Of a stretch of 64,000 bases of DNA, positions 34,020 through 53,597 are shown piece by piece. Below the pieces are notes generated by a model. The model was not told the DNA's origin. It saw only the letters and a list, made by a program, of their open reading frames with translations, and made no database searches. A program made the position numbers and the translations under genes. Origin of the DNA: a virus; IMG/VR virus record IMGVR_UViG_3300010412_000019, positions 5,521 to 69,520 of that record; one strand, written 5' to 3'. Positions within the stretch are counted from its first letter, which is position 1, and every line of letters starts with the position of its first letter.

Positions 34020-34024
34020 ATAAT

Positions 34025-35189: not shown

Positions 35190-35196
35190 ATGAATT

Positions 35197-35413: not shown

Positions 35414-35475
35414 CAACTTTTTTAGGAAAACCACTTGGTGTTATATATACCTATAACACCACCAAGGAGACACAA

Positions 35476-35767: not shown

Positions 35768-35768
35768 G

Positions 35769-36722: not shown

Positions 36723-36761
36723 TACCAGCGAATATATCTTTTCATTCTTGGAGAAAGCGAA

Positions 36762-36962
36762 TCAACTATTCTTCCTTATCCAATCATCAACGGCTTTATC
36801 CCATTTTTGAGTTTTCTTAGACTCCAATCCAGAAAGTGATCGATCAGATTTTCTACCACCACCCTTGATGAACTTGTTCTTTCCAGAATGAACATCAGGG
36901 GTATTCCAAGAATCTAAATTGTTTTTTCGCGTAAGGTCGCTTTTGCGTTTATTCATACTCAT
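36762..36962 (-). CDS. hypothetical basic protein
   Basis: 66 aa ORF. Confidence 0.45.
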   Translation of the reverse strand: MSMNKRKSDLTRKNNLDSWNTPDVHSGKNKFIKGGGRKSDRSLSGLESKKTQKWDKAVDDWIRKNS

Positions 36963-36999
36963 ATATGAAGTTTACCACAAAAATGATTGTTATGTCAAT

Positions 37000-37074
37000 T
37001 GGCAGCCCCGGCTGGATTTGCACCAGCATCACTCGGGTCAGAGCCGAGTATTCTGACTGTTGAACTACAGGGCA
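37000..37074 (-). tRNA. tRNA-Gln(CUG)
   Basis: Loop CT-CTG-AC, CCA. Confidence 0.9.
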
Positions 37075-37080
37075 ATAATT

Positions 37081-37157
37081 TGGGGTGATTGGTGGGAATT
37101 GCACCCACATAATACGGGTCACAGCCGTACACATTTACTTCCTCTGCCACAATCACC
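37081..37157 (-). tRNA. tRNA-His(GUG)
   Basis: Loop CT-GTG-AC, G-1:C73. Confidence 0.9.
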
Positions 37158-37163
37158 ATTGTC

Positions 37164-37237
37164 TGGCAGCCCAGATAGGAATCGAACCTATACCTGACAG
37201 CTTCAAAGGCTGGTGCTCTACTTTAAGCTACTGGGCA
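37164..37237 (-). tRNA. tRNA-Gln(UUG)
   Basis: Loop CT-TTG-AA, CCA. Confidence 0.88.
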
Positions 37238-37238
37238 A

Positions 37239-37481
37239 TTATACGTTTACGTTTTTATCTAGGGCAACGGGTACTTCTACCTTGTGACTCATTGCCGATT
37301 CTTGCAGTTTGCGTAACTGGTAATTCTTCCAGCCATCGACACCAAGAGGAGCGCCAATAACAGCACTCGCTAGGATGATCCAAGAGTCCCCTGTAATTTT
37401 ATCAAACCATAGAAAAAAACTGGCAAGAAAAATTGTGATCAGTGGTAGAATAAACTTTATTTTTACTTCATCCATTTTCAT
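37239..37481 (-). CDS. small two-TM membrane protein (holin-like)
   Basis: Two hydrophobic helices separated by DKITGDSW. Confidence 0.55.
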   Translation of the reverse strand: MKMDEVKIKFILPLITIFLASFFLWFDKITGDSWIILASAVIGAPLGVDGWKNYQLRKLQESAMSHKVEVPVALDKNVNV

Positions 37482-37496
37482 AGGCGTCTTCTAAAT

Positions 37497-37568
37497 TGGT
37501 ACCTCGTCTAGGTAACGCTCCCAGCAGGTCAGCTTTGTAAGAGCCGACTGTGCCCTTGCACCCGAGGC
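37497..37568 (-). tRNA. atypical tRNA-Val(UAC)
   Basis: Loop CT-TAC-AA, minimal D-arm, AGCGTTA T-loop, ACCA. Confidence 0.75.
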
Positions 37569-37581
37569 ATAAAATCTGACA

Positions 37582-37657
37582 TTGGACACGGTGGACGGGG
37601 TTGCACCGTCATAACTGGGGTTGCAATCCAGCGCATTCCTGACTCTGCCACACCGTG
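37582..37657 (-). tRNA. tRNA-Cys(GCA)
   Basis: Loop TT-GCA-AC, U73, CCA. Confidence 0.9.
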
Positions 37658-39361: not shown

Positions 39362-39365
39362 AATT

Positions 39366-39440
39366 TGGTGGGTCCTCAGGGATTCGAACCCCGACCGTTC
39401 TGGTTAAGAGCCAGATGTACTGCCGTTATACGAAAGACCC
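39366..39440 (-). tRNA. tRNA-Lys(CUU)
   Basis: Loop CT-CTT-AA, CCA. Confidence 0.9.
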
Positions 39441-39444
39441 AAAT

Positions 39445-39520
39445 TGGCGGGTGTTCTAGGAATCGAACCTAGCTTCAACGGTTAACAGCCGTTTGCTTGC
39501 ACCAGACTAGCTACACACCC
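39445..39520 (-). tRNA. tRNA-Asn(GUU)
   Basis: Loop CT-GTT-AA, CCA. Confidence 0.9.
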
Positions 39521-39526
39521 ATTGTT

Positions 39527-39609
39527 TGGTGGCGCATTATAGAATCGAACTACTAGGTCGTAGACCTCCCGGGTTACAGCCGGTTAAGACTCCCACTTCT
39601 CGATACGCC
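39527..39609 (-). tRNA. tRNA-Tyr(GUA)
   Basis: Loop CT-GTA-AC, variable arm, CCA. Confidence 0.85.
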
Positions 39610-39610
39610 A

Positions 39611-40732
39611 TTATACAAATTCAATACGGTTCTCTGACGTTTTCAAATAGTCAACGATATTTTGACCCATTAGATCGTAACCGTATTTGTTTAGAAATCT
39701 ACCTCTGACAATCAATTGCTCATCTTTCAAATTGTTCTTTTTGATGACGCTATCAATGTCACTTATCATCCACAACCCGGCGCAACTAATGTTACCACCG
39801 AATGCTTCATTTTCAACTTTCAGCACAACGTTTTCAACGTAGTGTTTTTCACCAGCCTCTAGTATTTTAGGCTTTATCCTATCATAAGCCGACGATGAAG
39901 TCAGCCAGAAGATTCGCTTTTGATCTTTGTATTTCTCTGTCAGTTGATCAATCTTGTCAAAGTCATATTCAAGTGGCTTATCAGGACGCTCCGTATAATT
40001 AACGGTCATCTGATATTTCTTGCTCATTGCTTCTGCAAATGCAGCCATTTCAACTGGGTTAACATACAGTTCTTTGACGACCTCTGGTTTAGTGTATCTT
40101 GTCCAGCTTGCATGTGTCATGCCAAGAAAATCAAAACCAAGTTTCTTTGATGCTCTAACTGATCGTTCAAGATCATCATATCCAACCAAGGCTGGCATTG
40201 CAATCATTCGAAGACCCACTTTGATACCATGTTTCATCAACAATGGTATTGATTTCATGGCTGTGTCGTAGTGCTTATCTTTCAGCTTGAAGATGTACTT
40301 CCAATACTCTCGGTCGAATGAGTGTATTGATATGGGCATCTTGACTGGCTTGAAATCAGCCAACCTGACAATCTTTTCTTCTGTACACAACGACCCGTTT
40401 GTTGCAATCGTCAGGATGTTCTTTGGGTACTTTGCGCGAATGACGCTCAATATGTCAAACACCTTTGGGTGCGTGAATACTTCACCTTCGCTTAGTTTGC
40501 CCGTGATAGCTTCGTTCAGTAGAAACTCGCCGGGGTAATTCGGGTTCATCGCCCAGATGACTTTTTCAATCTCTTCAACTGGTCGGTGTCTTGTTCGATG
40601 AACCTCAAATGGGTTCGTGTGATTCGAACAGAAAAGGCACTGAGCGTTACATGCCGATGTAATAGGGAGAACACCCGGCGCGTTACCAGACTCTAGGTGT
40701 TCAAAGAAGTAATCGGAAAATTCGCGTAACAT
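39611..40732 (-). CDS. radical SAM protein with DUF512-like C-terminus
   Basis: CNAQCLFC; VEN..FGGNI.CAGL....D; TATAAATA at 40737-40744. Confidence 0.85.
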   Translation of the reverse strand: MLREFSDYFFEHLESGNAPGVLPITSACNAQCLFCSNHTNPFEVHRTRHRPVEEIEKVIWAMNPNYPGEFLLNEAITGKLSEGEVFTHPKVFDILSVIRAKYPKNILTIATNGSLCTEEKIVRLADFKPVKMPISIHSFDREYWKYIFKLKDKHYDTAMKSIPLLMKHGIKVGLRMIAMPALVGYDDLERSVRASKKLGFDFLGMTHASWTRYTKPEVVKELYVNPVEMAAFAEAMSKKYQMTVNYTERPDKPLEYDFDKIDQLTEKYKDQKRIFWLTSSSAYDRIKPKILEAGEKHYVENVVLKVENEAFGGNISCAGLWMISDIDSVIKKNNLKDEQLIVRGRFLNKYGYDLMGQNIVDYLKTSENRIEFV

Positions 40733-40746
40733 GCCTTATTTATATC

Positions 40747-40820
40747 TGGAGCGGGTAGGGAGAATCGAACTCCACTCTCTACAGCTTGGAAGGCTGAGGA
40801 CATACCTCATGCTTACCCGC
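40747..40820 (-). tRNA. tRNA-Gly(UCC)
   Basis: Loop CT-TCC-AA, U73, CCA. Confidence 0.88.
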
Positions 40821-41130
40821 TAAATTTTTCGATGAAATCCTTGTAATCGATACGATTAACAACATCACCAAATTTTTCTTTCAACTGACTATAGATTCCA
40901 GCATTGTTCATTCGCAACGTTTCTGAATCCTTGCGGCAACGATACACGCTACCCGATTCGCCGATGAAGTCATAATAGTCATCACCTTCTTCGACTTTAT
41001 CAATCCCCGAATTCATTCTCCAAGAATCGCCGTCTAGGTAACCCCCAGACCATCCAGCAAGGATTTTGTAAAACGTATCTTCACCCTCTGGTGAGATTTC
41101 AAGAATAACCCAATTATCTGGTGTGTACAT
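40813..41130 (-). CDS. conserved phage hypothetical protein
   Basis: YTPDNWV...YK.LAGWSGGYLDGDSWRMNSGI...SGSVY.C.K. Confidence 0.8.
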   Translation of the reverse strand: MYTPDNWVILEISPEGEDTFYKILAGWSGGYLDGDSWRMNSGIDKVEEGDDYYDFIGESGSVYRCRKDSETLRMNNAGIYSQLKEKFGDVVNRIDYKDFIEKFSG

Positions 41131-41148
41131 AATGTAGTTCCTAAAATC

Positions 41149-41225
41149 TGGTAGGACGCGAGGGATTCGAACCCACTATCGACTGGTTAAAAGCCAGTTG
41201 CTTATGCCTATTAAGCTTCCGTCCT
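41149..41225 (-). tRNA. tRNA-Lys(UUU)
   Basis: Loop CT-TTT-AA, CCA. Confidence 0.88.
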
Positions 41226-42011
41226 ATGTTCATAAATTTCTGTAATTTCTGGTCGATTCTTCTCAGCAATCTTCTTCAAGATATCAACTGGGATTTTATT
41301 CACATCATGACTGTGAAAGTGAATCTTCTTCTCTTCTATCAGCCGTTCAACGTATGCAATTTCTCTTGCTGAATGAATTTGACTTGCAGCCCCATTAAGA
41401 CTGGATACAGGGACGTGCCAGCTATACGAAACCTTATCATCAATCCCTTGCTTAAACTTGAAGCCCATTTGCTGAAAATCGAAACCAATCAAATGAACCT
41501 CGGCTTGTGTTTTAATTCTGTTTAGAAACCAATCAAGACAATACACGCCTTGAGATACACGATTGGTTCTGTTGATGTGTTCCCTACCACCATTAATTCG
41601 GGAAAGTGAATTCATCATACCACCAATATGCTCTGTCAAAAAGTAGTCTCGGTAGACTTGAAATCTATCGGACATCATCACTTTTCGAAAAGCTACATCC
41701 CTTGAGTCTGAATACAATCCTAATTGAATGTACCCAAATGCTTTGAATTTCACATGTTCAAAGTCTCTAAAGTTTCCGGTTCTCAGAACACCGAAGAACC
41801 ACATATCTGTTTTTCTGCCAATGTACCTTACAAGATCGTCTGTCGGAACACCTTTGCCAAATCTAACAACAAAGTCAAATGAATCGATAAACTCACCATT
41901 CTCTTCATTCAGAATCCCCGGAGAGTTACCAACAAGAATTACTTTCTTGCCAGCGACGGCTTTCTTTAACCGATTTAACCAGATTCCATTGGCGTGATCA
42001 TTATACATCAA
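41211..42011 (-). CDS. glycosyltransferase family 29-like (sialyltransferase fold)
   Basis: VILVGNS..IL....G..IDS.D.VVRF...G.KTD; L.GFDF; H....E. Confidence 0.75.
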   Translation of the reverse strand: MMYNDHANGIWLNRLKKAVAGKKVILVGNSPGILNEENGEFIDSFDFVVRFGKGVPTDDLVRYIGRKTDMWFFGVLRTGNFRDFEHVKFKAFGYIQLGLYSDSRDVAFRKVMMSDRFQVYRDYFLTEHIGGMMNSLSRINGGREHINRTNRVSQGVYCLDWFLNRIKTQAEVHLIGFDFQQMGFKFKQGIDDKVSYSWHVPVSSLNGAASQIHSAREIAYVERLIEEKKIHFHSHDVNKIPVDILKKIAEKNRPEITEIYEHRTEA

Positions 42012-42687
42012 AAGTCCCCATTTTCATTCTGTCAACAATGGTCTTCTGCGTGTATTCTTCATACAAGTAGATGAAGTTGCTCCAACGTTTTGTTATTTTT
42101 TCATGCCAGTATTCAACGGGCTTTACAGAACAATGGAAGTTCTCACCATCCGAAAAAGACCTCAACGCTTCTTGACCAGATATCGTAAACAAAACAAGAC
42201 TGTTGTCATCTGTGTATTTCTTGATATCATCAAGCACGTAATCAATTGAGTCTTCTGGAACATGCTCTAAAACATCACAGCAAGTAACAATATCAAATTT
42301 GATATCAGGTGGCTTCTTACTGAAAGGCGGGTATGCCGGGTCGTAACACCAATAGCATTGAATGTACCCACGCATATACCCATAAAAGTCTGTTCTTTCG
42401 GTGATAAATGTTTTTTCTTGATTGGCCTTACCTCTTCGATACAGATGCGCTCCGGCACCAGAACCATAATCAAGAATTGTCACGCCGCGCTTCAAAACAA
42501 CATGTGTGTAGTATTTGATTGCAGGGGCAAATGTGGTAAACGTGTGAAACCCAGTAAAAGGCGTATCGATTATTGATCGGCCAGCTATGGTCGAAATTTC
42601 TTTCGTGTCATACCTGTCTTCATGTAGGTATGCATCTGAACCATCATGTATTTTCTTGTACTTGTCAATATACTTTTGAAGGTTCAT
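42001..42687 (-). CDS. class I SAM-dependent methyltransferase
   Basis: ILDYGSG, YDPA, FD.V.C.DVLEHVPE, DGENFH motifs. Confidence 0.85.
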   Translation of the reverse strand: MNLQKYIDKYKKIHDGSDAYLHEDRYDTKEISTIAGRSIIDTPFTGFHTFTTFAPAIKYYTHVVLKRGVTILDYGSGAGAHLYRRGKANQEKTFITERTDFYGYMRGYIQCYWCYDPAYPPFSKKPPDIKFDIVTCCDVLEHVPEDSIDYVLDDIKKYTDDNSLVLFTISGQEALRSFSDGENFHCSVKPVEYWHEKITKRWSNFIYLYEEYTQKTIVDRMKMGTFDV

Positions 42688-42799
42688 AATAATTCAATCG
42701 GGGGTGTTTGGTTGATTCTAGTTTGCATAAATGTTCACCTCAGGCTACTTATTTATGTAACAATTCGTCGGTCCACTTTCGCCTTTCGGTACCCCCGAA

Positions 42800-43060
42800 A
42801 ACCGTTGACCTGTCTTTCTGCATTGGGCGGGGTCTAATACCCCTAATTAATCACCATTCAGACCTATTCTCTGCCGAGAGGAATCGAACCTCTTTCTCCG
42901 CATTCTAAGTGCGGTGTGTTAGCCAGTACACTACAGGCAACTAAGCTTGAATGTAGACCAATGGTCTTCGAAAAACTCAGTTTGACTCTCCGGGTCAATA
43001 CGGTCATCGCATATCTCCCACCTCACTAGGTGGACGCATTCCTTATGCTATAACCCATCA
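42800..43060 (-). ncRNA. unassigned multi-helix RNA enclosing a tRNA-like domain
   Basis: Nested helices 42801-10/42993-43004, 42821-26/42958-63 and 42855-60/42948-53 around a cloverleaf at 42872-42939. Confidence 0.55.
42872..42939 (-). tRNA. embedded tRNA-like domain, anticodon UAG, short variable loop, no CCA
   Basis: ccgca-CTTAGAA-tgcgg; GGTTCGATTCC T-arm. Confidence 0.65.
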
Positions 43061-43202
43061 ACAAGTCACATATAAATCATATCTATTAAATATTAAGCAT
43101 CTATAAAATTAAATAATAACTATCATCTAACCATATTCTAAATTGAACATTTTAGTTTCCTTAGTCATTACTATCATTATCTCTACATTATAAGAGATAA
43201 TC

Positions 43203-43275
43203 TGGAGCGGGGGACAGGACTTGCACCTGTGCTTGCTGGTGGGCACCAGCCGTGCTGCTACTACACTACCCCTGC
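43203..43275 (-). tRNA. tRNA-Gly-like with 6-nt anticodon loop
   Basis: gctgg-TGCCCA-ccagc, U73, CCA. Confidence 0.7.
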
Positions 43276-43279
43276 ATTC

Positions 43280-43356
43280 TGGAGCGACCACCGAGATTCG
43301 AACTCGGACCTCAACGTTGGCAACGTCATGTACTAACCGTTAAATACTATGGTCGC
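43280..43356 (-). tRNA. tRNA-Gly(GCC)
   Basis: Loop TT-GCC-AA, CCA. Confidence 0.9.
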
Positions 43357-43362
43357 AAAATT

Positions 43363-43438
43363 TGGTGGAAAGTAATGGATTCGAACCACTGACACATCGG
43401 GCTTCAACCGATTGCTCTACCGCTGGAGCTAACTTTCC
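43363..43438 (-). tRNA. tRNA-Phe(GAA)
   Basis: Loop TT-GAA-GC, CCA. Confidence 0.9.
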
Positions 43439-43445
43439 AAAAATC

Positions 43446-43519
43446 TGGCAGACCAACTAGGATTCGAACCCAGAACAAACGGGTTGGAGCCGTTTATGTT
43501 ACCGTTACACCATTGATCT
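43446..43519 (-). tRNA. tRNA-Trp(CCA)
   Basis: Loop CT-CCA-AC, CCA end. Confidence 0.9.
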
Positions 43520-43520
43520 G

Positions 43521-43724
43521 TTATTCTATGATTGGCATGGGCACACTGGCCTGCATGTACCAATCTGGAGCTGTCGGCTCCGTATTCTTTGCATTGAAGT
43601 CATCTGAAAACTTCTTTGCCTTGTCGTAATCATCAACTTCGAAGCGTTCAACGAAATCGACTCTGCGACCCCATCCACGCTCAAACTCCCATACGACAAC
43701 TTTCCAACCTTTGAATCCCGACAT
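43521..43724 (-). CDS. hypothetical protein with its own sigma70 promoter
   Basis: AAGGAG RBS; TTGACT-17-TACACT at about 43747-43775. Confidence 0.7.
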   Translation of the reverse strand: MSGFKGWKVVVWEFERGWGRRVDFVERFEVDDYDKAKKFSDDFNAKNTEPTAPDWYMQASVPMPIIE

Positions 43725-43780
43725 AACTTTCTCCTTCTGGAGTATCAGTGTACATCACTTTATATCAAGAGTCAACAATT

Positions 43781-43857
43781 TGGTGGACCGTGAGAGAATC
43801 GAACTCTACAAGACAGTTTCCTTGCAAGGGAGACCCGCTGACCCACAGCTACAGCCC
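43781..43857 (-). tRNA. tRNA-Ala(UGC)
   Basis: Loop CT-TGC-AA, G3:U70, CCA. Confidence 0.85.
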
Positions 43858-44469
43858 ATATGTAAATTTTGTTTGTCTTCTCACACCATTCTCTTGTCTG
43901 GTGTATACAAAGATCAAATTTTCAAATCTAGGTCGAAGAATGTTCTTCCATTCATTACTGGTTTTTAGTGTACAGTGAAAGTTTTCACCGTCGGAGAACG
44001 ATTGGTATGAAGGTTCCCCGCATGTACTCACACCTAAAAAACCAGAATCAGATACAAAACTTCTGATATCATCAAGCACAAAATTTAGTGCTTCTTCGGG
44101 TATATGCTCAACAACATCGGCACAGATTACGAAATCATATTGACCCGTTGGCCGAACATCAAACCCCGGTAATGCTGGGTCATATGAACACCAGCTTCGT
44201 ATATTCATAGGGTGCGTGAAAAAGTGCCTATATGTTGCCAGTGGTTGACCGCAGCCATAGTCAAGTATGGAAATAGGTCTGCCTAGTTTCTCCGATACTC
44301 TAAGAATATCACCGCGAAATTTTGACCAACCCTGCCAGCCTGACATTGAATTTTGTTTGCCTTTGATGACATAAGCCTTATCAAGCTTAACGGGTGCAGA
44401 CCTTTTGTAGAAGTCTTCCGCCGTGTGTATCTTGCGATACTTTTCAATGTACTCTTCTAGCTTACTCAT
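43849..44469 (-). CDS. class I SAM-dependent methyltransferase (paralog 2)
   Basis: ILDYGCG, SYDPA, CADVVEHIPE, DGENFH motifs. Confidence 0.85.
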   Translation of the reverse strand: MSKLEEYIEKYRKIHTAEDFYKRSAPVKLDKAYVIKGKQNSMSGWQGWSKFRGDILRVSEKLGRPISILDYGCGQPLATYRHFFTHPMNIRSWCSYDPALPGFDVRPTGQYDFVICADVVEHIPEEALNFVLDDIRSFVSDSGFLGVSTCGEPSYQSFSDGENFHCTLKTSNEWKNILRPRFENLIFVYTRQENGVRRQTKFTYGL

Positions 44470-45104
44470 TTGAAGAAAGGACCATACAACGCCCGCACTT
44501 CTCGTTTTCTCCCAGTACCATCATCACTCTCAGACGTATAAATGAAAATGATATTCTTGAATTTTGCTGAAAGAATACTTCTCCATTCATCAAGACTTTT
44601 CATGGTGCAATGTAAATTCTCGCCATCTAGAAATGCTTTATGGGCTTTATCCCCTGTCGTTGCAATCGCAATAACACCATCGTCTTCTAGGTAGCTTCGC
44701 ATATCATCAAGCACCCATTCAAGTGCTTCTTCTGGTATATGTTCAACCACATCAGCGCAAATGATGAAATCAAATTTACCAATTGGCCTGATATCAAAAC
44801 CCGGTACGGCTGGGTCATATGAAGACCATGTTCGTATCAACATCTGGTTGGATTTGAAATACCTCCAAGTACCGAGAGGTCGACCGCAACCATAATCAAG
44901 TACTGAAATTGGGTAGCCCTTCTTTTCAGAAACAATTTTCACATATCGATTGAATTTCTTTTTACCCTGATACCCACTCATCACATCATCACCGACATTA
45001 CGCTCTTCGGGTTTTTGATCTTTATATGGGTAAAGCTGTAAGAAATTTTCTTCTTTAGTGTGAAGCTTGCGGTATTTCTCAATATATTCGTTCAGCTTAT
45101 CCAA
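44466..45104 (-). CDS. class I SAM-dependent methyltransferase (paralog 3)
   Basis: VLDYGCG, SYDPA, CADVVEHIPE, DGENLH motifs. Confidence 0.85.
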   Translation of the reverse strand: MDKLNEYIEKYRKLHTKEENFLQLYPYKDQKPEERNVGDDVMSGYQGKKKFNRYVKIVSEKKGYPISVLDYGCGRPLGTWRYFKSNQMLIRTWSSYDPAVPGFDIRPIGKFDFIICADVVEHIPEEALEWVLDDMRSYLEDDGVIAIATTGDKAHKAFLDGENLHCTMKSLDEWRSILSAKFKNIIFIYTSESDDGTGRKREVRALYGPFFK

Positions 45105-45158
45105 GTTTTATACCTCAGTTTTCCGACATAACTCAGTTTTTTCTGAGGTATATTTATG

Positions 45159-45235
45159 TGGCGGAGTATAGCGGATTCGAACCGCTCATCTCACCCGTGA
45201 CAGGGGCGAATCTTCACCTAGCAGACCCATACTCC
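45159..45235 (-). tRNA. tRNA-Asp(GUC)
   Basis: Loop CT-GTC-AC, CCA. Confidence 0.9.
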
Positions 45236-45284
45236 GAAGGCGTGTTGTTATAGCGGTTACACGCTCCGCTGTTACCAACGCATC

Positions 45285-45362
45285 TGGTAGACTAGATGGG
45301 ACTCGAACCCATATTTCTCGGCTTGAAAGGCCGGTCGCCTATTCCAATTAGCAGACTAGTCC
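45285..45362 (-). tRNA. tRNA-Glu(UUC)
   Basis: Loop CT-TTC-AA, CCA. Confidence 0.9.
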
Positions 45363-45368
45363 ATTGTT

Positions 45369-45448
45369 TGGCACGCCCGGCAAGAATCGAACTCGCATGT
45401 TTCCAATTAACCTTTCGACTGGTTCGTAGCCAGAGGGTATACGGACGT
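45369..45448 (-). tRNA. atypical tRNA-Arg(ACG) without canonical D-arm
   Basis: Loop CT-ACG-AA, T-arm and GCCA intact, 7-nt connector in place of the D-arm. Confidence 0.75.
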
Positions 45449-45530
45449 ATTGTTTGTTGCGGTGTCTCCCCTGTTATAGTACAGGCGAACTATGTTGACC
45501 TCCAGTGCCAACCAGACACCGCTGGAAAAT

Positions 45531-45610
45531 TGGCACCCCCGGAAAGATTCGAACTCTCATGCATCCATTTACCCTTTCTAGTGCTTAGAAGGCACAGGGG
45601 ATACGAGGGC
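45531..45610 (-). tRNA. atypical tRNA-Arg(UCU) without canonical D-arm
   Basis: Loop CT-TCT-AA; same architecture as 45369-45448. Confidence 0.75.
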
Positions 45611-45621
45611 ATTTAGTTTAA

Positions 45622-45711
45622 TGGCGGAGGCTGAGAGGATCGAACTCCCACAACGTTTTACCGTCATCGCCGGGTTCAAACCGGGTAAGCACGCCAGCCT
45701 TGCGAGCCTCC
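45622..45711 (-). tRNA. tRNA-Ser(UGA)
   Basis: Loop TT-TGA-AC, variable arm, GCCA. Confidence 0.9.
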
Positions 45712-45716
45712 GAAAT

Positions 45717-46358
45717 TCATTTTATTTTACGGCCTTTTCTCCAACCATCTGGGATAGGGTCGTTTTTACTAATCTTTTTTGATTCATGATTGTTTGTTAT
45801 CCACATAGTACCAAACGAACCATTATTTGCACCTAATCTTTTTGTGGCACCTTTTGCTATTTTTTGTTTAGATTCTTCTGTATGGTGCATACCCTTGAAT
45901 GTACCTTCTGGGTATTTTTCTTGCAGTTTCTTATTCCCAAGTTTTGCATTTTCCCTTATTAGAAAACGAAATTCGGGGTCATTATCATATTTCTTACGCC
46001 AAAGTTTTTGACGATCTTTAGCAGACATTAAAGAATTCAAACGTTTTTCTGTTAAAAACTTTTCTGGGTTATTATTGATATAATCAAACCCACCAAAACC
46101 GCCTTCTTTCAAATTGTAACCATTTGGGTCATTAAGGTTGACCAATTTAGCTTCCATGTAAAACATATCAGACGGGTTATTGAAAACCTCAAGAATCTCT
46201 TTCTCAAAATTTTCAACACCATATTTTTTAATGGCTCGCTTAATGAGTAAACCGCTACCCATATAACCATCATCAAGATCATAGGTCTTATGACAACCAA
46301 TATAGATTTTGCCATTGATCTTATTTACTATTTTATAAACAGTGTATTTTACATCCAT
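45717..46358 (-). mobile_element. free-standing GIY-YIG homing endonuclease (Seg-like, NUMOD3)
   Basis: VYKIVNKINGKIYIG.H, YMGSG, E, YNL..GG.GG, G.HHTEESK.KI, GW.KGR motifs; AT-rich. Confidence 0.9.
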
Positions 46359-46402
46359 ACACCTATATAGTAAAGTTCGAATCTCTCTAAGTGAGATTCA
46401 AA

Positions 46403-46479
46403 TGTCAGGATGGTAGGATTCGAACCTACGTGACTTCTGGTCCCAAACCAGACGCTTGGCCAAACTAAGCTACACCCTG
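46403..46479 (-). tRNA. tRNA-Pro(UGG), 3' end reads ACA rather than ACCA
   Basis: Loop TT-TGG-GA, canonical T-arm. Confidence 0.88.
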
Positions 46480-46650
46480 AAATTCACTTGTTCGATATTC
46501 TTCACTGTTCAGTAAAGATGAACAAAAAAATGAACAAGGCAACGATGAACGATGCCTCAACTCTTTGTACCCTTGGTACATGAGATTTAGTTTAATTTAA
46601 TGCACGTTTGTCTAGTCTAAGTAGACAAAAATGCACTAAAGTAAACTGAA

Positions 46651-47488
46651 AAGGCTGAGATTACACCCTCAACAACCCCGCTTTCGTTCCCGTACCGATC
46701 AGTTGCTACACTTCACGTTAAGAACTTATCCACCCCTCAGAGAGAGGTACGAAGTCATGGTTACCGTTTTTAAAGTCAGGCAGTAGACTTGTCACAGCAG
46801 AGATTTCAGCATTACAATTCCTGTCAACCTTGCGGGCTGTAAAGGTGCGCTAACACCACCACTCACTTTCACACTAACCAGCGTCCACCTTGCGAGTTTC
46901 TTCTGGCCCTGATTCCCTTGCGGGTCAGGGGTTAAACCATTTCTCTCTTACTGCCGAGGCGGTCTTTGCATTTTTAGTCTTTGAGGCTAAATCGGGAGTT
47001 GAACCCGAACTCTATCATCCAAATTGACATGCGCTACCATTACGCAATTTAGCAAAACCTACCTCGATGAGCCGCCTCTGTCGCTTCATGCCCTTTTGAG
47101 GCACAAAATACAACCCACCGAATGTCCTTTCACCCGCTAAGGCTACTTTGAACCGTATCTCAAGACCACGGCATCCCTACCGCAACCTATCGTACTGCGC
47201 CACAGCTTTTACCCGCTAAGGCTCTAACCGTAACACTACCCTTTGACTCTTGGTAATCGGTAAGTTTGCGTGTGTCTAGCTGGTTGCTATCCCAGCAGGT
47301 CTTCGGTCACCGTCGGCCCCCTCAGACTCTTCAACACCTCACCTTCTTACCGTAACTCACCCGGAGGTAAGTCTACTTAACGAAGTCTCGGCTTGCTTGC
47401 TTGACCATTGCTGGCGCGGGTGCGTAGGCTTCACCGCTTTCCCCACCTTTCGATGGGATTATCTTATGGAGTACAAGCACCCCATTTC
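46651..47488 (-). ncRNA. GOLLD RNA (~840 nt)
   Basis: ORF-free, hairpin-dense with many GCAA loops. Segments UCAAAGUAGCC, GGGUUGUAUUUUGU..CUCAAAAGG and 3' GUGUAAUCUCAGCC match my recollection of GOLLD. Located in a phage tRNA array with an internal tRNA. Ends approximate. Confidence 0.75.
46985..47053 (-). tRNA. tRNA-like domain (UUG anticodon, no CCA) inside GOLLD
   Basis: GCTAAAT/ATTTAGC acceptor, GCGT-AATGGTA-GCGC D-arm, tgtca-ATTTGGA-tgata, GGTTCAACTCC. Confidence 0.7.
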
Positions 47489-47775
47489 TTAAAACAAACA
47501 TGAAAATCTACAATCAGACGAAGGTAAACCCTTCAATCAGGCGAAGACTTTAATGTTTGTTCTAAGACCATCGCCGGGGGCACCCACTCTGGGGTCGCTT
47601 GAGCGTCCCGCGCACGGTGCGTTGCACATTTGCGCTGGGTGCCCCCAACAACGATTTAGAAATCCGTATTGTTAAAACAGAACCGTTAGTGTCTCGTATC
47701 CGAACTGGGTAGACATTTCGCCCGCCCGACTTTCTAACGCTTTACTCTGTTGCCTCTTCTCTCAATCAGAAGTCC

Positions 47776-47805
47776 ATCTTAATGCATTTCGCAATAGTCT
47801 GTCAA
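47776..47805 (-). promoter_or_regulatory. sigma70 promoter upstream of the small RNAs and GOLLD
   Basis: TTGACA-18-TAAGAT. Confidence 0.6.
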
Positions 47806-47824
47806 CCCCTGATCCAAACTTTTT

Positions 47825-47895
47825 TGGTACGCTCGGAAGGATTCGAACCTTCGACGGTGATCTTAGGAGGATCACCTGCATCCACTGCCAAGCGT
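47825..47895 (-). tRNA. tRNA-Arg(CCU), short D-loop
   Basis: Loop CT-CCT-AA, CCA. Confidence 0.82.
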
Positions 47896-47896
47896 G

Positions 47897-48571
47897 TCAT
47901 AAAAACTTAGGCAGATATCCAAAATTGTCAAAATCTACCTTGTACGTGGTATAGACGATTTCAGCAAACTCTGGCTTGTCTCTATACCAATCGAAGTTCA
48001 TTGAATAATACGTGTCATCAACGTCTTCGATGTAATTCATTGTAACCGGGTGCCCAATTTCACGCATCACTTTGTTCAAGTTTTCTTGGCGAACAACCCG
48101 TGTCACTCTTTTAAGCGGTATGCCCTTCAAAAAGTAAGAGCATGGCTTAGGGAAGGGAAACAAACCCCCACCCATTGGACTAGAAAGTTGAAACGAATGG
48201 TTATCAATCCTTCTAAGTCTACCAGCTTTCAAGATTAACAAGTAATCTTCAAAACTCAGGTCAAGTGGTCTTAGTTCTGAAAGCGAAGGTCTTGTACCAC
48301 CTCTTGCTTTCACTTTCTCCATTGTATCTTCGGCTAAAGAACCAATACCCATCAACTTGTTATAAAACAATCTCCACTGACTCTGTAATCGTGTGTACGG
48401 GTGTCGAACCGAAATGTACAACTTACGATCACCGAGCAAACTTGGGTCAACATTATGCCAAGTGTCACTGTTCTGTTCAAGGATATCATGTCGCCCTATC
48501 GCACCAAGAATTGTCTTAGTGCCCGTTCTGGGCGGTGTTATCCAAGCTTCATTATCACCTACCAAATGCAT
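47897..48571 (-). CDS. sulfotransferase family 2 protein
   Basis: PPRTGT.TI, VRHPYTRL.S.W, R.ENL, Y..DF.NFGY motifs. Confidence 0.75.
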   Translation of the reverse strand: MHLVGDNEAWITPPRTGTKTILGAIGRHDILEQNSDTWHNVDPSLLGDRKLYISVRHPYTRLQSQWRLFYNKLMGIGSLAEDTMEKVKARGGTRPSLSELRPLDLSFEDYLLILKAGRLRRIDNHSFQLSSPMGGGLFPFPKPCSYFLKGIPLKRVTRVVRQENLNKVMREIGHPVTMNYIEDVDDTYYSMNFDWYRDKPEFAEIVYTTYKVDFDNFGYLPKFL

Positions 48572-48585
48572 AATGTACCCATATC

Positions 48586-48660
48586 TGGTGCTCCCATCAG
48601 GATTCGAACCTGCGACTGATCACTACCAATGATCTGTTTTACCACCTAAACTATAAGAGC
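48586..48660 (-). tRNA. tRNA-Thr(GGU)
   Basis: Loop TT-GGT-AG, CCA. Confidence 0.9.
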
Positions 48661-49244
48661 GCATACCCGAAATTTCTAAAATCTCTTGCGTACACCTTAT
48701 TGATCACCTTGATACAATCTGGGTGTTTGTCGAACCATTCAAGATTCAACTCTGATCGTTCTCCCCAACCATGCGTTTTTGGCAGGTCACATGGGAGACC
48801 GACCGACTCTAAATCTTCTTGCAGGTGCTCAAATCGGATGAACTTCGCCACCTTATCAAGCCTGCAAACGAAATCTTTGTCTTCAAGATACCTAGTCAAA
48901 TATAACGGGTACTTGATTGTGTTGAACCTACATTCATGTATTGTCCAACAATCAAAATTGTTGTTTCGTAGGTTGACCAAATCCATAACATATTCTTCAA
49001 AAGTTCTGCTACGGACAATTCTAGGATCAACCCTATGTAACACTCTCCAAAAACTCTGTATTCGTGTATATGGGCTTCGAATGTTCATATACAACTTTCG
49101 ACCGCCCAGAATATCAAGGTCTATACCACTGTGCTTGAGATTCCACCCAACAAAGTACTTGTGCCTTTCTATCAGTTTAAGCGTATATCTGGCCGCTGTT
49201 CGATGCGGTACAATCCACGCTTCATTTTCTCCCACTAAATGCAT
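48651..49244 (-). CDS. sulfotransferase family 2 protein (paralog)
   Basis: PHRTA, IRSPYTRI.S.W, RFEHL..DL, YARDF.NFGY; N-terminus MHLVG.NEAWI shared with 47897-48571. Confidence 0.75.
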   Translation of the reverse strand: MHLVGENEAWIVPHRTAARYTLKLIERHKYFVGWNLKHSGIDLDILGGRKLYMNIRSPYTRIQSFWRVLHRVDPRIVRSRTFEEYVMDLVNLRNNNFDCWTIHECRFNTIKYPLYLTRYLEDKDFVCRLDKVAKFIRFEHLQEDLESVGLPCDLPKTHGWGERSELNLEWFDKHPDCIKVINKVYARDFRNFGYALL

Positions 49245-49254
49245 AATTTCAATT

Positions 49255-49330
49255 TGGTGCCGAAAGTAGGACTTGAACCCACAACCTGACGCTTACAAGG
49301 CGACTGCACTGCCAATTGTGCTATTTCGGC
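49255..49330 (-). tRNA. tRNA-Thr(UGU)
   Basis: Loop CT-TGT-AA, CCA. Confidence 0.9.
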
Positions 49331-52595: not shown

Positions 52596-53066
52596 GCCCT
52601 CCCGAATTTATGTTCGGTGCATTCAAAATCAGGGTCGTTGTTTTCAAGAATCCAACGGGAACCAGCACTTGGGATAGTGCTTGGCGGTACGTAGTTCTCA
52701 CCCAAGTTCTCACGCGGATTTCGCGTAGTCTGCGGCATGGGTGAAATGTACAGGTGGGGCTTCCTTGACTGGAAGTAATACAAATCAGGCTTTTCAATCT
52801 TCTGGTGAACTTTCCAGATATCACCATACTGACGAATTACCTGCGCGGCTTTTGCCGTGATAGGCTCAAGTTTGACAAATTTCACAAAATGTCTCCATCA
52901 TATAATTGAAAGGGAAGTCTTACCCTTGGAAGTCGTTTTTGTCTTCCTTCGATGTAAGACCCTTGAATTTCGAAACTACCAAGTCAGATAGTTTCTTCGC
53001 CCATGCTGGCTGAGGGGTTGCCCACCCAACCATTAGTGCGACAAAAATCATTAGTACAGTCCACAT
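52592..53066 (-). CDS. hypothetical proteins (52592-52885; small membrane ORF 52920-53066)
   Basis: Second ORF MWTVLMIFVALMVGWATPQPAWAKK... with AAGGA RBS. Confidence 0.55.
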
Positions 53067-53109
53067 TTTATTATCCTTCTATTTTTCGTAATATTCAGTC
53101 ATAAAATTC

Positions 53110-53465
53110 AGTAGCCCATTTGGGTAATAAGGCTGGGCTAGACCTCAGATGGGGTTAGGCTGCGAGAGGCAGCACCTCACCATCAAAAAATGCATCGTTA
53201 GCAGCATTTAATTTTAGTTTCGTCAGAGTTACGGTCTGTTGCTACACCGCATTGTCCATCTATTTTCTGACCCAAGTCGATTCCAGAGTCACCCCCATCA
53301 GAAACACACTTACCGCAACCTGTACCCATCAACAAAATTAGTGCTGGGTCTTTTTCAATGTCGCTTTCAGTAATCTCGTTACAAATACAAAGGTACATGT
53401 GTTTTTGGTGGAGGTGGGGAGATTCGAACTCCCGTCCTCAAGCCGTATCGTCAATATCATACAAT
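53110..53465 (-). ncRNA. ssrA: circularly permuted two-piece tmRNA
   Basis: Acceptor piece ...GGACGGGAGTTCGAATCTCCCCACCTCCACCA (CCA ends at 53406) lies upstream of a coding piece starting GGGGGTGACTCTGGAATCGAC (53296); G3:U70 pair; tag ORF 53205-53155 AANDAFFDGEVLPLAA*. Outer ends approximate. Confidence 0.92.
53198..53398 (-). CDS. minimal Bfd-like [2Fe-2S] protein inside the tmRNA gene
   Basis: MYLCICNEITE..I...GTGCGKC resembles the Bfd CxC...CGxC motif. Confidence 0.65.
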   Translation of the reverse strand: MYLCICNEITESDIEKDPALILLMGTGCGKCVSDGGDSGIDLGQKIDGQCGVATDRNSDETKIKCC

Positions 53466-53597
53466 GATAAATTCAAAAGAGCGTGTTGGTGGGGATTCTA
53501 GGTTGCCTCTTACCGCGCCTCGCCGTCCTAGCACTGGGGCTGACCAACATCACTCTATTTCAATTATGGTAATACACTCAGAGATTCGTTGCAACCT

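What the first reader, a model, noticed from the sequence alone, without database searches (positions are those of the whole stretch)
53110..53465. Permuted two-piece phage tmRNA whose intervening segment encodes a mini-Bfd ferredoxin
Seen: the acceptor piece (T-arm plus CACCUCCACCA, ending at 53406) is transcribed before the coding piece (GGGGGUG from 53296; G3:U70; tag AANDAFFDGEVLPLAA*). The 109-nt intervening segment carries an ATG 7 nt after the CCA. Its first 34 codons (MYLCICNEITESDIEKDPALILLMGTGCGKCVSD, a shortened Bfd CxC...CGxC domain) end exactly at the predicted RNase P cut (53297/53296). The frame then continues through the tmRNA 5' domain to a stop at 53198. Established: permuted tmRNAs exist, and their intervening segment is normally regarded as a discarded spacer. 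Inference: maturation would turn this message into a near-leaderless non-stop mRNA (itself a tmRNA substrate), or its translation could compete with processing. Either would link iron/Fe-S status to ribosome rescue.
Basis: partly seen in the sequence, partly recalled or inferred. Interest (0 to 1): 0.88.

Follow-up and report, generated by a model that had tools for sequence, protein, structure and literature searches.

The report
Mini-Bfd gene inside phage tmRNA spacer
In this uncultured phage, the spacer normally cut out and discarded when its two-piece ribosome-rescue RNA (tmRNA) matures carries a real, conserved gene for a tiny four-cysteine, Bfd-type protein, so one transcript appears to serve both as a messenger and as the precursor of a stable RNA.

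Summary
ARAGORN and Rfam RF04321 (85.8 bits, cut-off 47) call a permuted tmRNA on the minus strand. The 109-nt intervening segment (53297-53405) opens with ATG 7 nt after CCA, and its 34 codons end exactly at G1.

The ORF is a real gene. Twelve of 40 related metagenome loci carry a homologue in the same slot. In 6 more it lies just upstream of a permuted tmRNA. In the other 22 no tmRNA was found, and some of these ORFs overlap the stop of the gene before them (an IscU-type protein, peptide deformylase). In the embedded copies pN/pS is 0.29, against 1.1-1.3 in the other frames. The four cysteines are invariant in 118 sequences. The only PDB neighbours, by sequence and by fold, are Bfd chains. 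Pfam's Fer2_BFD cut-off is not reached.

The non-stop reading is not favoured. The frame stays open past G1 to about the resume codon in 7 of 7 embedded lineages, against 9 of 43 ORF-less phage tmRNAs. This points to the uncut precursor as the messenger. The start codon sits in a conserved helix, and there are no expression data.

This scan has reported the same arrangement before on other DNA. My literature searches found no description of it.

The parts
53064..53498 (-). Whole permuted (two-piece) tmRNA gene as called by ARAGORN; the Rfam RF04321 match covers 53155-53466
   Evidence: tmRNA*, tag AANDAFFDGEVLPLAA*; 85.8 bits, gathering score 47
53406..53466 (-). Acceptor piece: 5' strand of the joining helix, T-arm (GGGAG/TTCGAAT/CTCCC, 53433-53417), acceptor 3' strand CACCTCC (53416-53410), A73, CCA (53408-53406)
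   Evidence: alignment to the model's T-arm and acceptor pairs
53297..53405 (-). Intervening segment, 109 nt: 7-nt spacer plus the 34-codon mini-Bfd core. With the acceptor strands it folds as a long rod.
   Evidence: (-41.6 kcal/mol, z -3.99 against 200 dinucleotide shuffles)
53297..53398 (-). Mini-Bfd core, 34 codons (MYLCICN...CGKCVSD); Cys4, Cys6, Cys28, Cys31
53198..53398 (-). Full ORF, 66 codons plus TAA. Codons 35-66 are read from the mature tmRNA 5' domain, and the stop overlaps tag codons 2-3.
53397..53404 (-). 5' strand of the closing helix (AAACACAU: spacer plus the A and U of the start codon)
53302..53309 (-). 3' strand of the closing helix (GUGUGUUU, within the Lys-Cys-Val-Ser codons)
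   Evidence: the equivalent helix in relatives is 97% paired
53064..53296 (-). Coding piece of the tmRNA, starting with the acceptor 5' strand GGGGGTG (53296-53290; G3 opposite U70)
53155..53205 (-). Tag reading frame: resume codon GCT at 53205-53203, 16 codons, TAA at 53157-53155

Best explanation
The locus is a dual-use gene. A phage two-piece tmRNA gene carries, in its intervening segment, a real protein-coding gene for a shortened Bfd-type four-cysteine module. This module belongs to a small-protein family that I found almost only in phage and metagenome DNA. The same roughly 100 nt also form the long helix that extends the acceptor stem of the precursor. The protein is most likely made from tmRNA precursor that RNase P has not yet cut at G1: either fully uncut, or cut only after CCA, which would leave a 7-nt leader. 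The ribosome would read from the ATG through the tmRNA 5' domain to the stop beside the resume codon, giving a 66-residue product. Each transcript would then become either a messenger or a tmRNA. By likeness to Bfd, the protein most plausibly binds a [2Fe-2S] cluster and docks on host bacterioferritin or Fe-S assembly proteins to free or route iron during infection. Shown here: the tmRNA, the ORF anatomy, selection on the protein, the Bfd likeness, and the open frame past G1. Inferred: which RNA species is translated, metal binding, and the cellular target.
For: (1) tmRNA.

(2) The same ORF sits in the same slot elsewhere. In a metagenome scan seeded with MYLCICN/EITESDI[ED], 40 loci were confirmed from at least 594 pattern matches. 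Twelve of the 40 have CCA, then 3 or 7 nt, then ATG, then a 30-codon core, then GAT|GGGGG in frame. Rfam finds RF04321 in 17 of the 40 and ARAGORN finds a permuted tmRNA in 15 of the 40. An IMG/VR junction pattern gave 12 more loci, for 13 distinct sequences in all. A JGI protein, P0002, is 88% identical over 66 residues. Its 4 changes in the core are conservative and 4 changes in the tail are not.

(3) Coding selection. In 9 distinct embedded cores the variable sites by codon position are 13/7/27. Leaving out the 7 codons fixed by the search pattern, pooled pN/pS is 0.29, against 1.11 and 1.28 in the other two frames. The window against 11 34-codon-class cores that lie outside an intervening segment gives 0.54, against 1.04 and 1.65.

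(4) It is a gene in its own right elsewhere. Six of the 40 loci have it just upstream of a permuted tmRNA with its own stop. L009 there has TTGACA-17-TATAAT and AAGGA, and L010/L016 have GAGGAG before the ATG. Of the 22 remaining loci, three that I checked have an ATG overlapping the stop of the upstream gene: NifU_N/IscU in L042 (E 1.9e-51), peptide deformylase in L040 (E 3.3e-35), and an SNase homologue in L014.

(5) Family. A profile search of 1.84 billion representatives gave 145 hits at E<=1e-3, most of them 35-90 residues long with the module at the N-terminus. In an alignment of 118 of these, C4, C6, C28 and C31 are invariant. A scan of bacterial and archaeal species genomes confirmed 1 of 100 pattern matches.

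(6) Bfd likeness. With the profile of 28 cores, the 4 best of 6 PDB hits are P. aeruginosa Bfd (best E 5.4e-4). With the 118-row profile, all 4 hits at E<=0.1 are Bfd (2.2e-9), differing by one 10-residue deletion. The AF2 model has pLDDT 92.4. All 3 Foldseek matches at E<=10 are Bfd chains of 4e6k, with TMq 0.62-0.70 but E 0.51. VIA-align found 2 of 48,161 chains with Z>=2, both Bfd (Z 3.0 and 2.9, rmsd 2.0 A over 33 residues).

(7) Docking. The complex model with E. coli Bfr dimer plus heme scored 0.68 with a best control of 0.02. That mark was reached by 58 of 80 solved complexes and 2 of 110 mismatched pairs. The runs agree in at least 91% of contacts and the partner's pLDDT is at least 78. 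Contacts are residues 1, 2, 4-6 of the peptide with Bfr 68-81. A like complex (4e6k) is solved, so this shows likeness, not binding.

(8) The precursor as messenger. The frame after G1 is open for 23-41 codons, to about the resume codon, in 7 of 7 embedded lineages. It closes after 8-9 codons in the 4 related tmRNAs whose intervening segment holds no ORF (L002, L009, L010, L016). Among ARAGORN-confirmed phage permuted tmRNAs without this ORF it is open for at least 23 codons in 9 of 43 (14 of 55 by my own criterion). Fisher p is 1.1e-4, or 0.004 if only 4 lineages are counted.
Against: There are no expression data of any kind.

There is no Shine-Dalgarno sequence before the ATG. The start codon lies in a helix that is 97% paired across 9 distinct relatives, with a compensatory change between the spacer and a synonymous Ile position. 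This helix should hinder initiation once it has folded. The embedded cores are more structured than the non-embedded ones (mean z -3.05 for 10, against -1.19 for 15), so part of the conservation acts on the RNA.

The tail read from the tmRNA is not conserved as protein.

Pfam and NCBIfam cut-offs are not reached. Only 8 of 28 cores hit Fer2_BFD at E<=0.01, and 6 of 28 hit zinc_ribbon_6.

The 118-row alignment used for searches contains some canonical-length Bfds, so those results lean towards Bfd. Structural scores are weak in absolute terms because the query is only 34 residues.

The Bfr used was E. coli's, as a stand-in. The host is unknown and may have no bacterioferritin.

The first seven residues are conserved by construction of the search. 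The embedded lineages are related, so the p-values overstate independence.

The related complete phage G001 has a tmRNA with a spacer of about 30 nt and no mini-Bfd anywhere. The gene is therefore dispensable for the tmRNA.
Confidence: 0.6

Rival explanations
1. Non-stop message. Cuts after CCA and at G1 release the intervening segment as a near-leaderless, stop-less mini-mRNA. Ribosomes stall at its 3' end, and the 34-residue peptide is tagged by tmRNA and degraded. Its level would then report trans-translation capacity, as arfA does in E. coli.
For: The core ends exactly at G1 in every embedded copy, and the ATG lies 3 or 7 nt after CCA. In P0077 it appears to overlap CCA, but that is read by eye from a protein sequence. 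Eight of the 22 loci without a tmRNA have TATAA[A/G]TA 5-8 nt before the ATG, which fits translation with little or no leader. The start position for T4-type late promoters is recalled, not tested. [quoted passage not shown]
Against: If the cut segment were the messenger, nothing would keep the frame open downstream of G1. It is open in 7 of 7 embedded lineages against 9 of 43 controls. Some relatives seem to read through the acceptor piece as well (P0084, P0088; read by eye from protein tails), which a released spacer cannot explain. The non-embedded homologues have C-terminal tails of roughly 5-35 residues after the module, so a bare 34-mer may not be the functional form. The excised RNA would be a closed rod with its AUG paired. 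The core is acidic (6 D/E against 2 K by count), unlike ArfA's basic tail (the ArfA property is recalled).
Confidence: 0.15
2. The protein is real but is not an iron or bacterioferritin factor. It would be a Cys4 zinc knuckle or other small binder that acts on translation or on the tmRNA pathway itself, which would explain why it travels with tmRNA.
For: Eighteen of 40 loci link it physically to a tmRNA, in two different arrangements. Other neighbours are translation- or proteolysis-related: peptide deformylase in L040, and a Clp protease two genes downstream in L042. Six of 28 cores hit Pfam zinc_ribbon_6 at E<=0.01. Neither G000 nor G001 encodes SmpB or a ferritin.
Against: The only sequence and fold neighbours in the PDB are Bfd chains. 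The N-terminal M1, Y2 and I5 are placed on the Bfr dimer interface in the complex model. In L042 the gene overlaps the stop of an IscU/NifU_N gene, echoing the NifU domain order, which I recall rather than tested. The tmRNA linkage may simply reflect a permissive slot, since other unrelated small ORFs occupy the spacers of other phage tmRNAs.
Confidence: 0.2
3. The ORF is not expressed. The segment is conserved as a processing hairpin, and the reading frame is a relic of a captured gene.
For: There is a long, stable, conserved closing helix. There is no ribosome-binding site. The embedded cores are more structured than the non-embedded ones.
Against: An RNA helix does not produce a three-base periodicity. 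Variable sites are 12/7/22 by codon position and pN/pS is 0.29 only in the ORF frame. Length variants differ by 12 nt (30 against 34 codons). All four cysteines are kept in every embedded copy. The compensatory helix change uses a synonymous Ile position.
Confidence: 0.05

Closest known systems
Circularly permuted (two-piece) tmRNA genes: Alpha- and Betaproteobacteria, Cyanobacteria, and phages such as OM43 phage Melnitz (PMC9004378 and PMC11915505, passages read)
   Same: The acceptor piece is transcribed before the coding piece. The tRNA-like domain has G3:U70, and the tag ends in LAA. An intervening sequence is removed on maturation. Matches RF04321.
   Different: Here the intervening sequence is a selected protein-coding gene whose frame continues into the mature RNA. 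In the passages I read, PMC11915505 mentions only a tRNA-Ala gene and a repetitive element as unusual contents of intervening sequences. The window's tmRNA reaches none of the three subtype models.
Bacterioferritin-associated ferredoxin Bfd (Pfam PF04324; P. aeruginosa Bfd, PDB 4e6k and 6e6q)
   Same: N-terminal MYxCxC and G-x-x-CGKC motifs, four cysteines in the same order, and a helix-hairpin core. The predicted docking of residues 1, 2 and 5 on the Bfr dimer resembles 4e6k. Bfd's role in releasing iron from BfrB is taken from PMC7760384 (passages read).
   Different: It is about 10 residues shorter between the cysteine pairs (C6 to C28, against C6 to C38). It scores below the Pfam and NCBIfam cut-offs. 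In my scans it was found almost only in phage and metagenome DNA. Metal binding is untested.
NifU-type proteins, in which an IscU-like domain is followed by a Bfd-like [2Fe-2S] domain (domain order recalled, not tested)
   Same: In L042 a NifU_N/IscU gene is immediately followed by, and overlaps, a 36-residue mini-Bfd gene.
   Different: These are separate genes rather than one polypeptide. No such neighbour is present in the window.
arfA of E. coli: a rescue factor made from a message that loses its stop codon by RNA cleavage (abstract of PMC10107115 seen in the listing)
   Same: An RNA-processing cut would remove the stop codon from a small ORF tied to the trans-translation system.
   Different: The open frame past G1 argues against the cut form being the messenger. 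The peptide is acidic and cysteine-rich and shows no likeness to ArfA.
Dual-function RNAs that are both a regulatory or stable RNA and an mRNA (for example SgrS/SgrT, RNAIII/hld; recalled)
   Same: One transcript carries both a functional RNA and a small ORF.
   Different: Here the ORF fills the segment that is excised from a tRNA-like precursor and overlaps the mature RNA, so the two uses exclude each other on a single molecule.

Membership tests
Permuted tmRNA (Rfam RF04321) | Covariance-model score at or above the gathering score | tested here: met
   85.8 bits against 47, E 5e-15, full model 1-213
Permuted tmRNA (Rfam RF04321) | Acceptor piece with T-arm and CCA lies upstream of the 5' acceptor strand on the same strand | tested here: met
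   CCA at 53408-53406 and GGGGGTG from 53296
Permuted tmRNA (Rfam RF04321) | G3:U70 alanine identity pair | tested here: met
   GGGGGUG pairs with CACCUCC, placing G3 opposite U70 (read directly)
Permuted tmRNA (Rfam RF04321) | Tag reading frame with resume codon, hydrophobic C-terminus and stop | tested here: met
   AANDAFFDGEVLPLAA*; 53205-53155
Permuted tmRNA (Rfam RF04321) | Assignment to the alpha, beta or cyano subtype (RF01849, RF01850, RF01851) | tested here: not met
   No row for these models at gathering score in the window. Relatives L007, L008, L020 and L002 do reach them.
Permuted tmRNA (Rfam RF04321) | Maturation into two base-paired pieces, alanylation, and activity with SmpB | not testable with these tools
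   No RNA data. No SmpB in G000 or G001, so a host SmpB would be needed.
Fer2_BFD (Pfam PF04324) / Bfd | Profile score at or above the curated cut-off | tested here: not met
   21.3 bits for the core and 14.6 bits for the whole ORF, against 26. NF007803 scores 16.3 against 75. Eight of 28 cores hit at E<=0.01.
Fer2_BFD (Pfam PF04324) / Bfd | Four cluster-binding cysteines arranged CxC...CxxC | tested here: met
   C4, C6, C28 and C31, invariant in 118 aligned sequences
Fer2_BFD (Pfam PF04324) / Bfd | Canonical spacing between the two cysteine pairs | tested here: not met
   There is a 10-residue deletion relative to P. aeruginosa Bfd in the profile alignment. The CxC-to-CxxC span is 28 residues (24 in the 30-codon class), against 38-39 in the canonical-length hits.
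Fer2_BFD (Pfam PF04324) / Bfd | Bfd fold | tested here: inconclusive
   The model has pLDDT 92.4. The only PDB neighbours are Bfd chains, but the scores are weak: Foldseek E 0.51 with TMq 0.62-0.70, and VIA Z 3.0 and 2.9. The alignment behind the model included canonical Bfds.
Fer2_BFD (Pfam PF04324) / Bfd | Docks on the bacterioferritin dimer above the heme | tested here: inconclusive
   Complex model score 0.68 with a best control of 0.02. That mark was reached by 58 of 80 solved complexes and 2 of 110 mismatched pairs. Contact agreement is at least 91% and partner pLDDT at least 78. E. coli Bfr was a stand-in and a like complex is solved, so this shows likeness only.
Fer2_BFD (Pfam PF04324) / Bfd | Binds a [2Fe-2S] cluster | not testable with these tools
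   Needs purified protein
ArfA-like rescue factor regulated through a non-stop message | The functional messenger lacks a stop codon after RNA cleavage | tested here: inconclusive
   An RNase P cut at G1 would remove the stop, but the frame kept open past G1 argues that the uncut RNA is read
ArfA-like rescue factor regulated through a non-stop message | Sequence likeness to a known rescue factor | tested here: not met
   Pfam and NCBIfam scans of the ORF list only the Bfd families

The most novel reading that the evidence does not exclude
The spacers of phage two-piece tmRNA genes may be general slots for small genes, and tRNA-type processing may decide their expression. A cut after CCA would create a leaderless or near-leaderless 5' end. 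RNase P at G1 would then either end the message or, for the mini-Bfd, strip its stop codon. Each precursor molecule would be partitioned between a ribosome-rescue RNA and a messenger. The cut messenger would be a non-stop substrate of the very tmRNA it came from, giving an ArfA-like feedback that ties supply of an iron-mobilising protein to rescue capacity during infection.
Probability: 0.2. Interest if true: 0.9.

Novelty: new variant of a known kind. Interest (0 to 1): 0.75.

Why it matters
The intervening sequence of permuted tmRNA genes is treated as discarded spacer. Here it is a selected gene that overlaps mature tmRNA, recurs in many aquatic phage lineages, and has to satisfy a protein code and a processing helix in the same bases.

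This makes a concrete question testable: can a tRNA-like precursor double as an mRNA, and do RNase P and 3' processing gate translation?

It also defines a family of about 30-34-residue Bfd-type modules that I found almost only in phage and metagenome DNA. That suggests phages manipulate host iron stores or Fe-S assembly.

For annotation, gene callers and tmRNA finders each report only half of such loci. The cultured phage Melnitz has an unannotated spacer ORF of a different kind, which offers a laboratory entry point.

Tried and rejected
Close relatives were not found by several routes. GenBank phages gave no blastn match for the locus and no tblastn match for the 34-residue core. The ORF with 8-residue patterns found nothing in IMG/VR, and neither did an exact T-arm/acceptor pattern. 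blastn of two related tmRNA genes against GenBank phages matched only about 35 nt of T-arm and acceptor.

The neighbouring 420-residue protein led to a complete 316.8-kb relative (L001/G001). Its tmRNA lies elsewhere in the genome, has a spacer of about 30 nt, and has no mini-Bfd.

The first AF2 model, from 28 rows, had pLDDT 61 and was not used. The protein atlas gave only scores of 0.82 or less, which I treat as leads at most.

Expression: no RNA holder was listed for the stretch. Laying four DNA runs gave identical contigs plus unrelated T-arm fragments and no informative variants.

The promoter and terminator scan found no more sites than shuffles do, and none directly upstream of the acceptor piece.

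I suspected a degenerate second acceptor end at about 53505-53545. Local alignment scored no better than 69 of 500 shuffles, so I dropped the idea.

No SmpB or ferritin was found in G000 or G001, and G000 is only 34% complete.

Literature: searches found no description of a protein gene in a tmRNA intervening sequence or of a phage mini-Bfd. I read passages only of PMC11915505, PMC9004378, PMC7760384, PMC10117765 and PMC13136788. PMC516066 and PMC4708090 are not held. The Bfd hot-spot residues Y2 and L5 are therefore recalled, not read. The tmRNA database tables of PMC11915505 (79 phage sequences) might list such spacers, and I could not see them.

Tails of protein representatives that look like translated tmRNA (P0007, P0012, P0013, P0015, P0019, P0027, P0034, P0037, P0039, P0058, P0077) or like a translated acceptor piece (P0084, P0088, P0091, P0097) were judged by eye. 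They were not checked on DNA.
Full report
THE OBSERVATION. On the minus strand, ARAGORN calls a permuted tmRNA at 53064-53498 with the tag AANDAFFDGEVLPLAA*. Rfam's tmRNA_permuted model RF04321 matches 53155-53466 over its full length at 85.8 bits, against a gathering score of 47. Reading the sequence gives the following layout. The T-arm is at 53433-53417. The acceptor 3' strand CACCTCC is at 53416-53410, A73 at 53409, and CCA at 53408-53406. Seven bases follow, and the ATG is at 53398. GGGGGTG starts at 53296, with G3 opposite U70. The intervening segment is therefore 53405-53297, 109 nt. The ORF is 66 codons with TAA at 53200-53198, and its 34th codon (GAT) ends at 53297, immediately before G1. 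The stop overlaps codons 2-3 of the tag, whose resume codon is at 53205. The window is part of an IMG/VR virus record of 69.5 kb that is estimated to be 34% complete. It also carries 27 tRNA genes and a GOLLD RNA.

IS THE ORF A GENE? On its own the ORF hits Pfam Fer2_BFD only below threshold: 21.3 bits for the 34-residue core and 14.6 bits for the whole ORF, with a cut-off of 26. NCBIfam NF007803 gives 16.3 bits against a cut-off of 75. The comparative evidence is much stronger.
- A JGI protein, P0002, is 88% identical over all 66 residues. Its four changes in the core are E>D, A>S, L>M and I>L. Its four changes in the tmRNA-derived tail are radical.
- A metagenome scan seeded with MYLCICN/EITESDI[ED] gave 40 tblastn-confirmed loci out of at least 594 pattern matches.
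- Rfam finds a permuted tmRNA in 17 of the 40 loci and ARAGORN in 15 of the 40.

THREE ARRANGEMENTS.
- Type I, 12 of 40 loci plus the window. The order is CCA, then 3 or 7 nt, then ATG, then a core of 30 codons (34 in the window), then GAT|GGGGG, the tmRNA 5' end, in frame.
- Type II, 6 of 40 loci. The ORF lies directly upstream of a permuted tmRNA that has a short spacer, and it has its own stop. In L009 it is preceded by TTGACA-17-TATAAT and AAGGA. In L010 and L016 it is preceded by GAGGAG.
- Type III, 22 of 40 loci. No tmRNA was found.
An IMG/VR search for the CCA-ATG junction gave 12 more loci, most of them the same sequences, for 13 distinct type I sequences in all.

CODING SELECTION. In 9 distinct type I cores, the variable sites by codon position are 13/7/27, and pairwise dN/dS is 0.03-0.31 wherever dS is not saturated. 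The first seven codons were fixed by the search pattern, so I left them out. For codons 8-30, pooled pN/pS is 0.29 in the ORF frame, against 1.11 and 1.28 in the other two frames. The window compared with 11 34-codon-class cores of types II and III gives 0.54, against 1.04 and 1.65, with pS saturated at 0.81. The two size classes differ by 12 nt.

Three type III members that I checked have a start that overlaps the stop of the upstream gene. These are a NifU_N/IscU protein in L042 (E 1.9e-51), peptide deformylase in L040 (E 3.3e-35), and an SNase homologue in L014.

A profile search of 1.84 billion representatives found 145 hits at E<=1e-3. Most are 35-90 residues long with the module at the N-terminus, and canonical-length Bfds appear at the weak end. 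In 118 of these aligned, the four cysteines are invariant and M1, G25 and G29 are at least 90% conserved. This search was not tied to MYLCICN. A scan of one genome for each of 185,579 prokaryote species confirmed only 1 of 100 pattern matches, a longer Bfd in a MAG. The short module therefore looks phage-borne, within the limits of that pattern.

WHAT THE PROTEIN RESEMBLES.
- By sequence. With the 28-core profile, the 4 best of 6 PDB hits are P. aeruginosa Bfd (E 5.4e-4 to 2.4e-3). They match in two stretches on either side of a deletion. With the 118-row profile, all 4 hits at E<=0.1 are Bfd (2.2e-9), in one stretch with a 10-residue deletion.
- By fold. AF2 with that alignment gives pLDDT 92.4. 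Foldseek returns only 3 matches at E<=10, all Bfd chains of 4e6k (TMq 0.62-0.70, E 0.51). VIA-align against 48,161 chains returns only 2 at Z>=2, both Bfd (Z 3.0 and 2.9, rmsd 2.0 A, 33 residues).
These scores are weak in absolute terms because the query is 34 residues. The alignment also contained some canonical Bfds, so they show likeness and not membership. Two defining features are not met: the curated cut-offs and the canonical cysteine spacing.
- By docking. A complex model with an E. coli bacterioferritin dimer and heme scored 0.68, with a best control of 0.02. That mark was reached by 58 of 80 solved complexes and 2 of 110 mismatched pairs. The runs agree in at least 91% of contacts and the partner's pLDDT is at least 78. 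It places M1, Y2, C4, I5 and C6 against Bfr residues 68-81. A like complex is solved (4e6k) and the Bfr is a stand-in, so this says only that the docking face is retained.
Bfd's known role, passing electrons through the Bfr heme to release stored iron, is taken from passages of PMC7760384.

RNA CONSTRAINTS IN THE SAME BASES. With the acceptor strands, the window's spacer folds as a rod at -41.6 kcal/mol, z -3.99. The spacer and the A and U of the start codon (AAACACAU) pair with GUGUGUUU inside the Lys-Cys-Val-Ser codons. In 11 type I relatives with a 3-nt spacer (9 distinct), the acceptor stem plus its extension, 23 pairs in all, is 97% paired. Three of those pairs show changes on both sides. 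One is between the last spacer base and the third position of the Ile codon (UA in 6, AU in 3), which is a synonymous change. Between L020 and L021, a spacer G>A goes with a synonymous UGC>UGU. Type I cores are more structured than type II and III cores, with mean z -3.05 for 10 against -1.19 for 15. The segment is therefore dual-coded, and the start codon is occluded once the helix has formed.

WHICH RNA IS THE MESSENGER? One test bears on this: if only the excised spacer were read, nothing should keep the frame open beyond G1.
- In 7 of 7 type I lineages the frame is open for 23-41 codons after G1, to about the resume codon.
- In the four related tmRNAs whose spacer holds no ORF (L002, L009, L010, L016) it closes after 8-9 codons. 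L009 is otherwise very close to the type I L008.
Of 81 matches, 55 have a complementary acceptor strand plus NCCA upstream. ARAGORN of those 55 permuted tmRNAs. None of the 55 has the mini-Bfd. The frame is open for at least 23 codons in 14 of 55, or 9 of the 43.
- Fisher's one-sided p is 1.1e-4 for 7 of 7 against 9 of 43, and 0.004 if only four lineages are counted. The lineages are related, so these figures are upper bounds on significance.
Some protein representatives appear to read through the acceptor piece as well, but I judged that by eye.

I conclude that ribosomes most likely read RNA not yet cut at G1, giving a 66-residue product here. Translation and maturation would then exclude each other on one molecule. 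Eight of the 22 type III loci have TATAA[A/G]TA 5-8 nt before the ATG. A cut after CCA would leave a 3-7-nt leader. The start position for T4-type late promoters is recalled, not tested.

A WIDER PATTERN. In the control sample, many long spacers hold other small ORFs.
- A 28-residue hydrophobic peptide occurs in L098 and L099, with pS 0.50 and pN 0.05.
- A protein of 69-73 residues occurs in L123 and L131, with pS 0.85 and pN 0.28 over 68 aligned codons.
- Others occur in L090, L113, L066, L077 and L120. Several are preceded by GGAG-like motifs, and three (L098, L099, L090) end in the UGA of the conserved UGAU|GGGG.
- The cultured OM43 phage Melnitz (MZ577097) has a spacer of about 133 nt with an unannotated ORF that has a Shine-Dalgarno-like GGAG motif before its ATG, no cysteines, and 41 codons before G1, reading in frame into G1.
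Spacers of phage tmRNA genes thus look like slots for small genes, and the mini-Bfd is one recurrent cargo.

WHAT IS KNOWN. Permuted tmRNAs and phage copies of them are described (PMC11915505 and PMC9004378, passages read). In those passages, the first paper mentions a tRNA-Ala gene and a repetitive element as unusual spacer contents, not protein genes. Seven full-text searches found no report of a protein gene in a tmRNA spacer or of a phage mini-Bfd. Supplements were closed.

Earlier notes of this scan describe the same arrangement in several other genomes, with follow-up agents reaching similar conclusions. I saw these only after forming my reading. They are not independent evidence.

VERDICT. 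I class the finding as a new variant of known kinds (permuted tmRNA, Bfd-type module, dual-function RNA), with interest 0.75. No expression, metal-binding or target data exist yet.

Noticed in passing
window 46652-47121 (-): GOLLD RNA (Rfam RF02032, 159.5 bits against a gathering score of 150) with a tRNA-Gln(ttg) gene at 46983-47054 inside it.
   Followed up: partly
window 30859-49330 (-): ARAGORN tRNA genes, all on the minus strand. One, at 43203-43275, is reported with a two-base anticodon ('tRNA-???'). Rfam lists further tRNA matches at 37586-37657 and 35119-35189 that ARAGORN does not call.
   Followed up: no
L043 (GenBank MZ577097, phage Melnitz) 1233-1416: The annotated SsrA of this cultured phage has a spacer of about 133 nt. 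It holds an unannotated ORF with a GGAG Shine-Dalgarno-like motif before its ATG, no cysteines, and 41 codons before G1, reading in frame into GGGGGCG. Its last codons (..GTRSVYD|GG) resemble the end of the mini-Bfd ORF of L020.
   Followed up: partly
L098, L099, L123, L131, L090, L113, L066, L077, L120 (IMG/VR loci): Long spacers of other phage permuted tmRNAs hold unrelated small ORFs, several of them hydrophobic and preceded by GGAG-like motifs. Two pairs show purifying selection: L098/L099 with pS 0.50 and pN 0.05, and L123/L131 with pS 0.85 and pN 0.28. Three (L098, L099, L090) stop in the UGA of the conserved UGAU before G1.
   Followed up: partly
L042 1148-2624; L040 1536-2194: Mini-Bfd genes outside tmRNA loci overlap the stop of a NifU_N/IscU gene (L042, with a Clp protease two genes downstream) and of a peptide deformylase gene (L040).
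   Followed up: partly
L028, L030, L032-L035, L037, L041 (upstream of the mini-Bfd ATG): A TATAA[A/G]TA box lies 5 nt (8 nt in L030) before the ATG, with no ribosome-binding site. This suggests leaderless or near-leaderless late transcripts. The promoter geometry is recalled, not tested.
   Followed up: no
window 52920-53066 (-): A 48-codon ORF with a hydrophobic N-terminus, preceded by AGAAGGA, starts just inside the 3' end of ARAGORN's tmRNA call. It was not examined further.
   Followed up: no
L002 (G001, 316.8-kb complete relative) 1451-1786: The relative's permuted tmRNA reaches the Betaproteobacteria model (RF01850, 98.6 bits), whereas the window's tmRNA reaches no subtype model. The two tmRNA genes are not in the same genomic neighbourhood.
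   Followed up: partly
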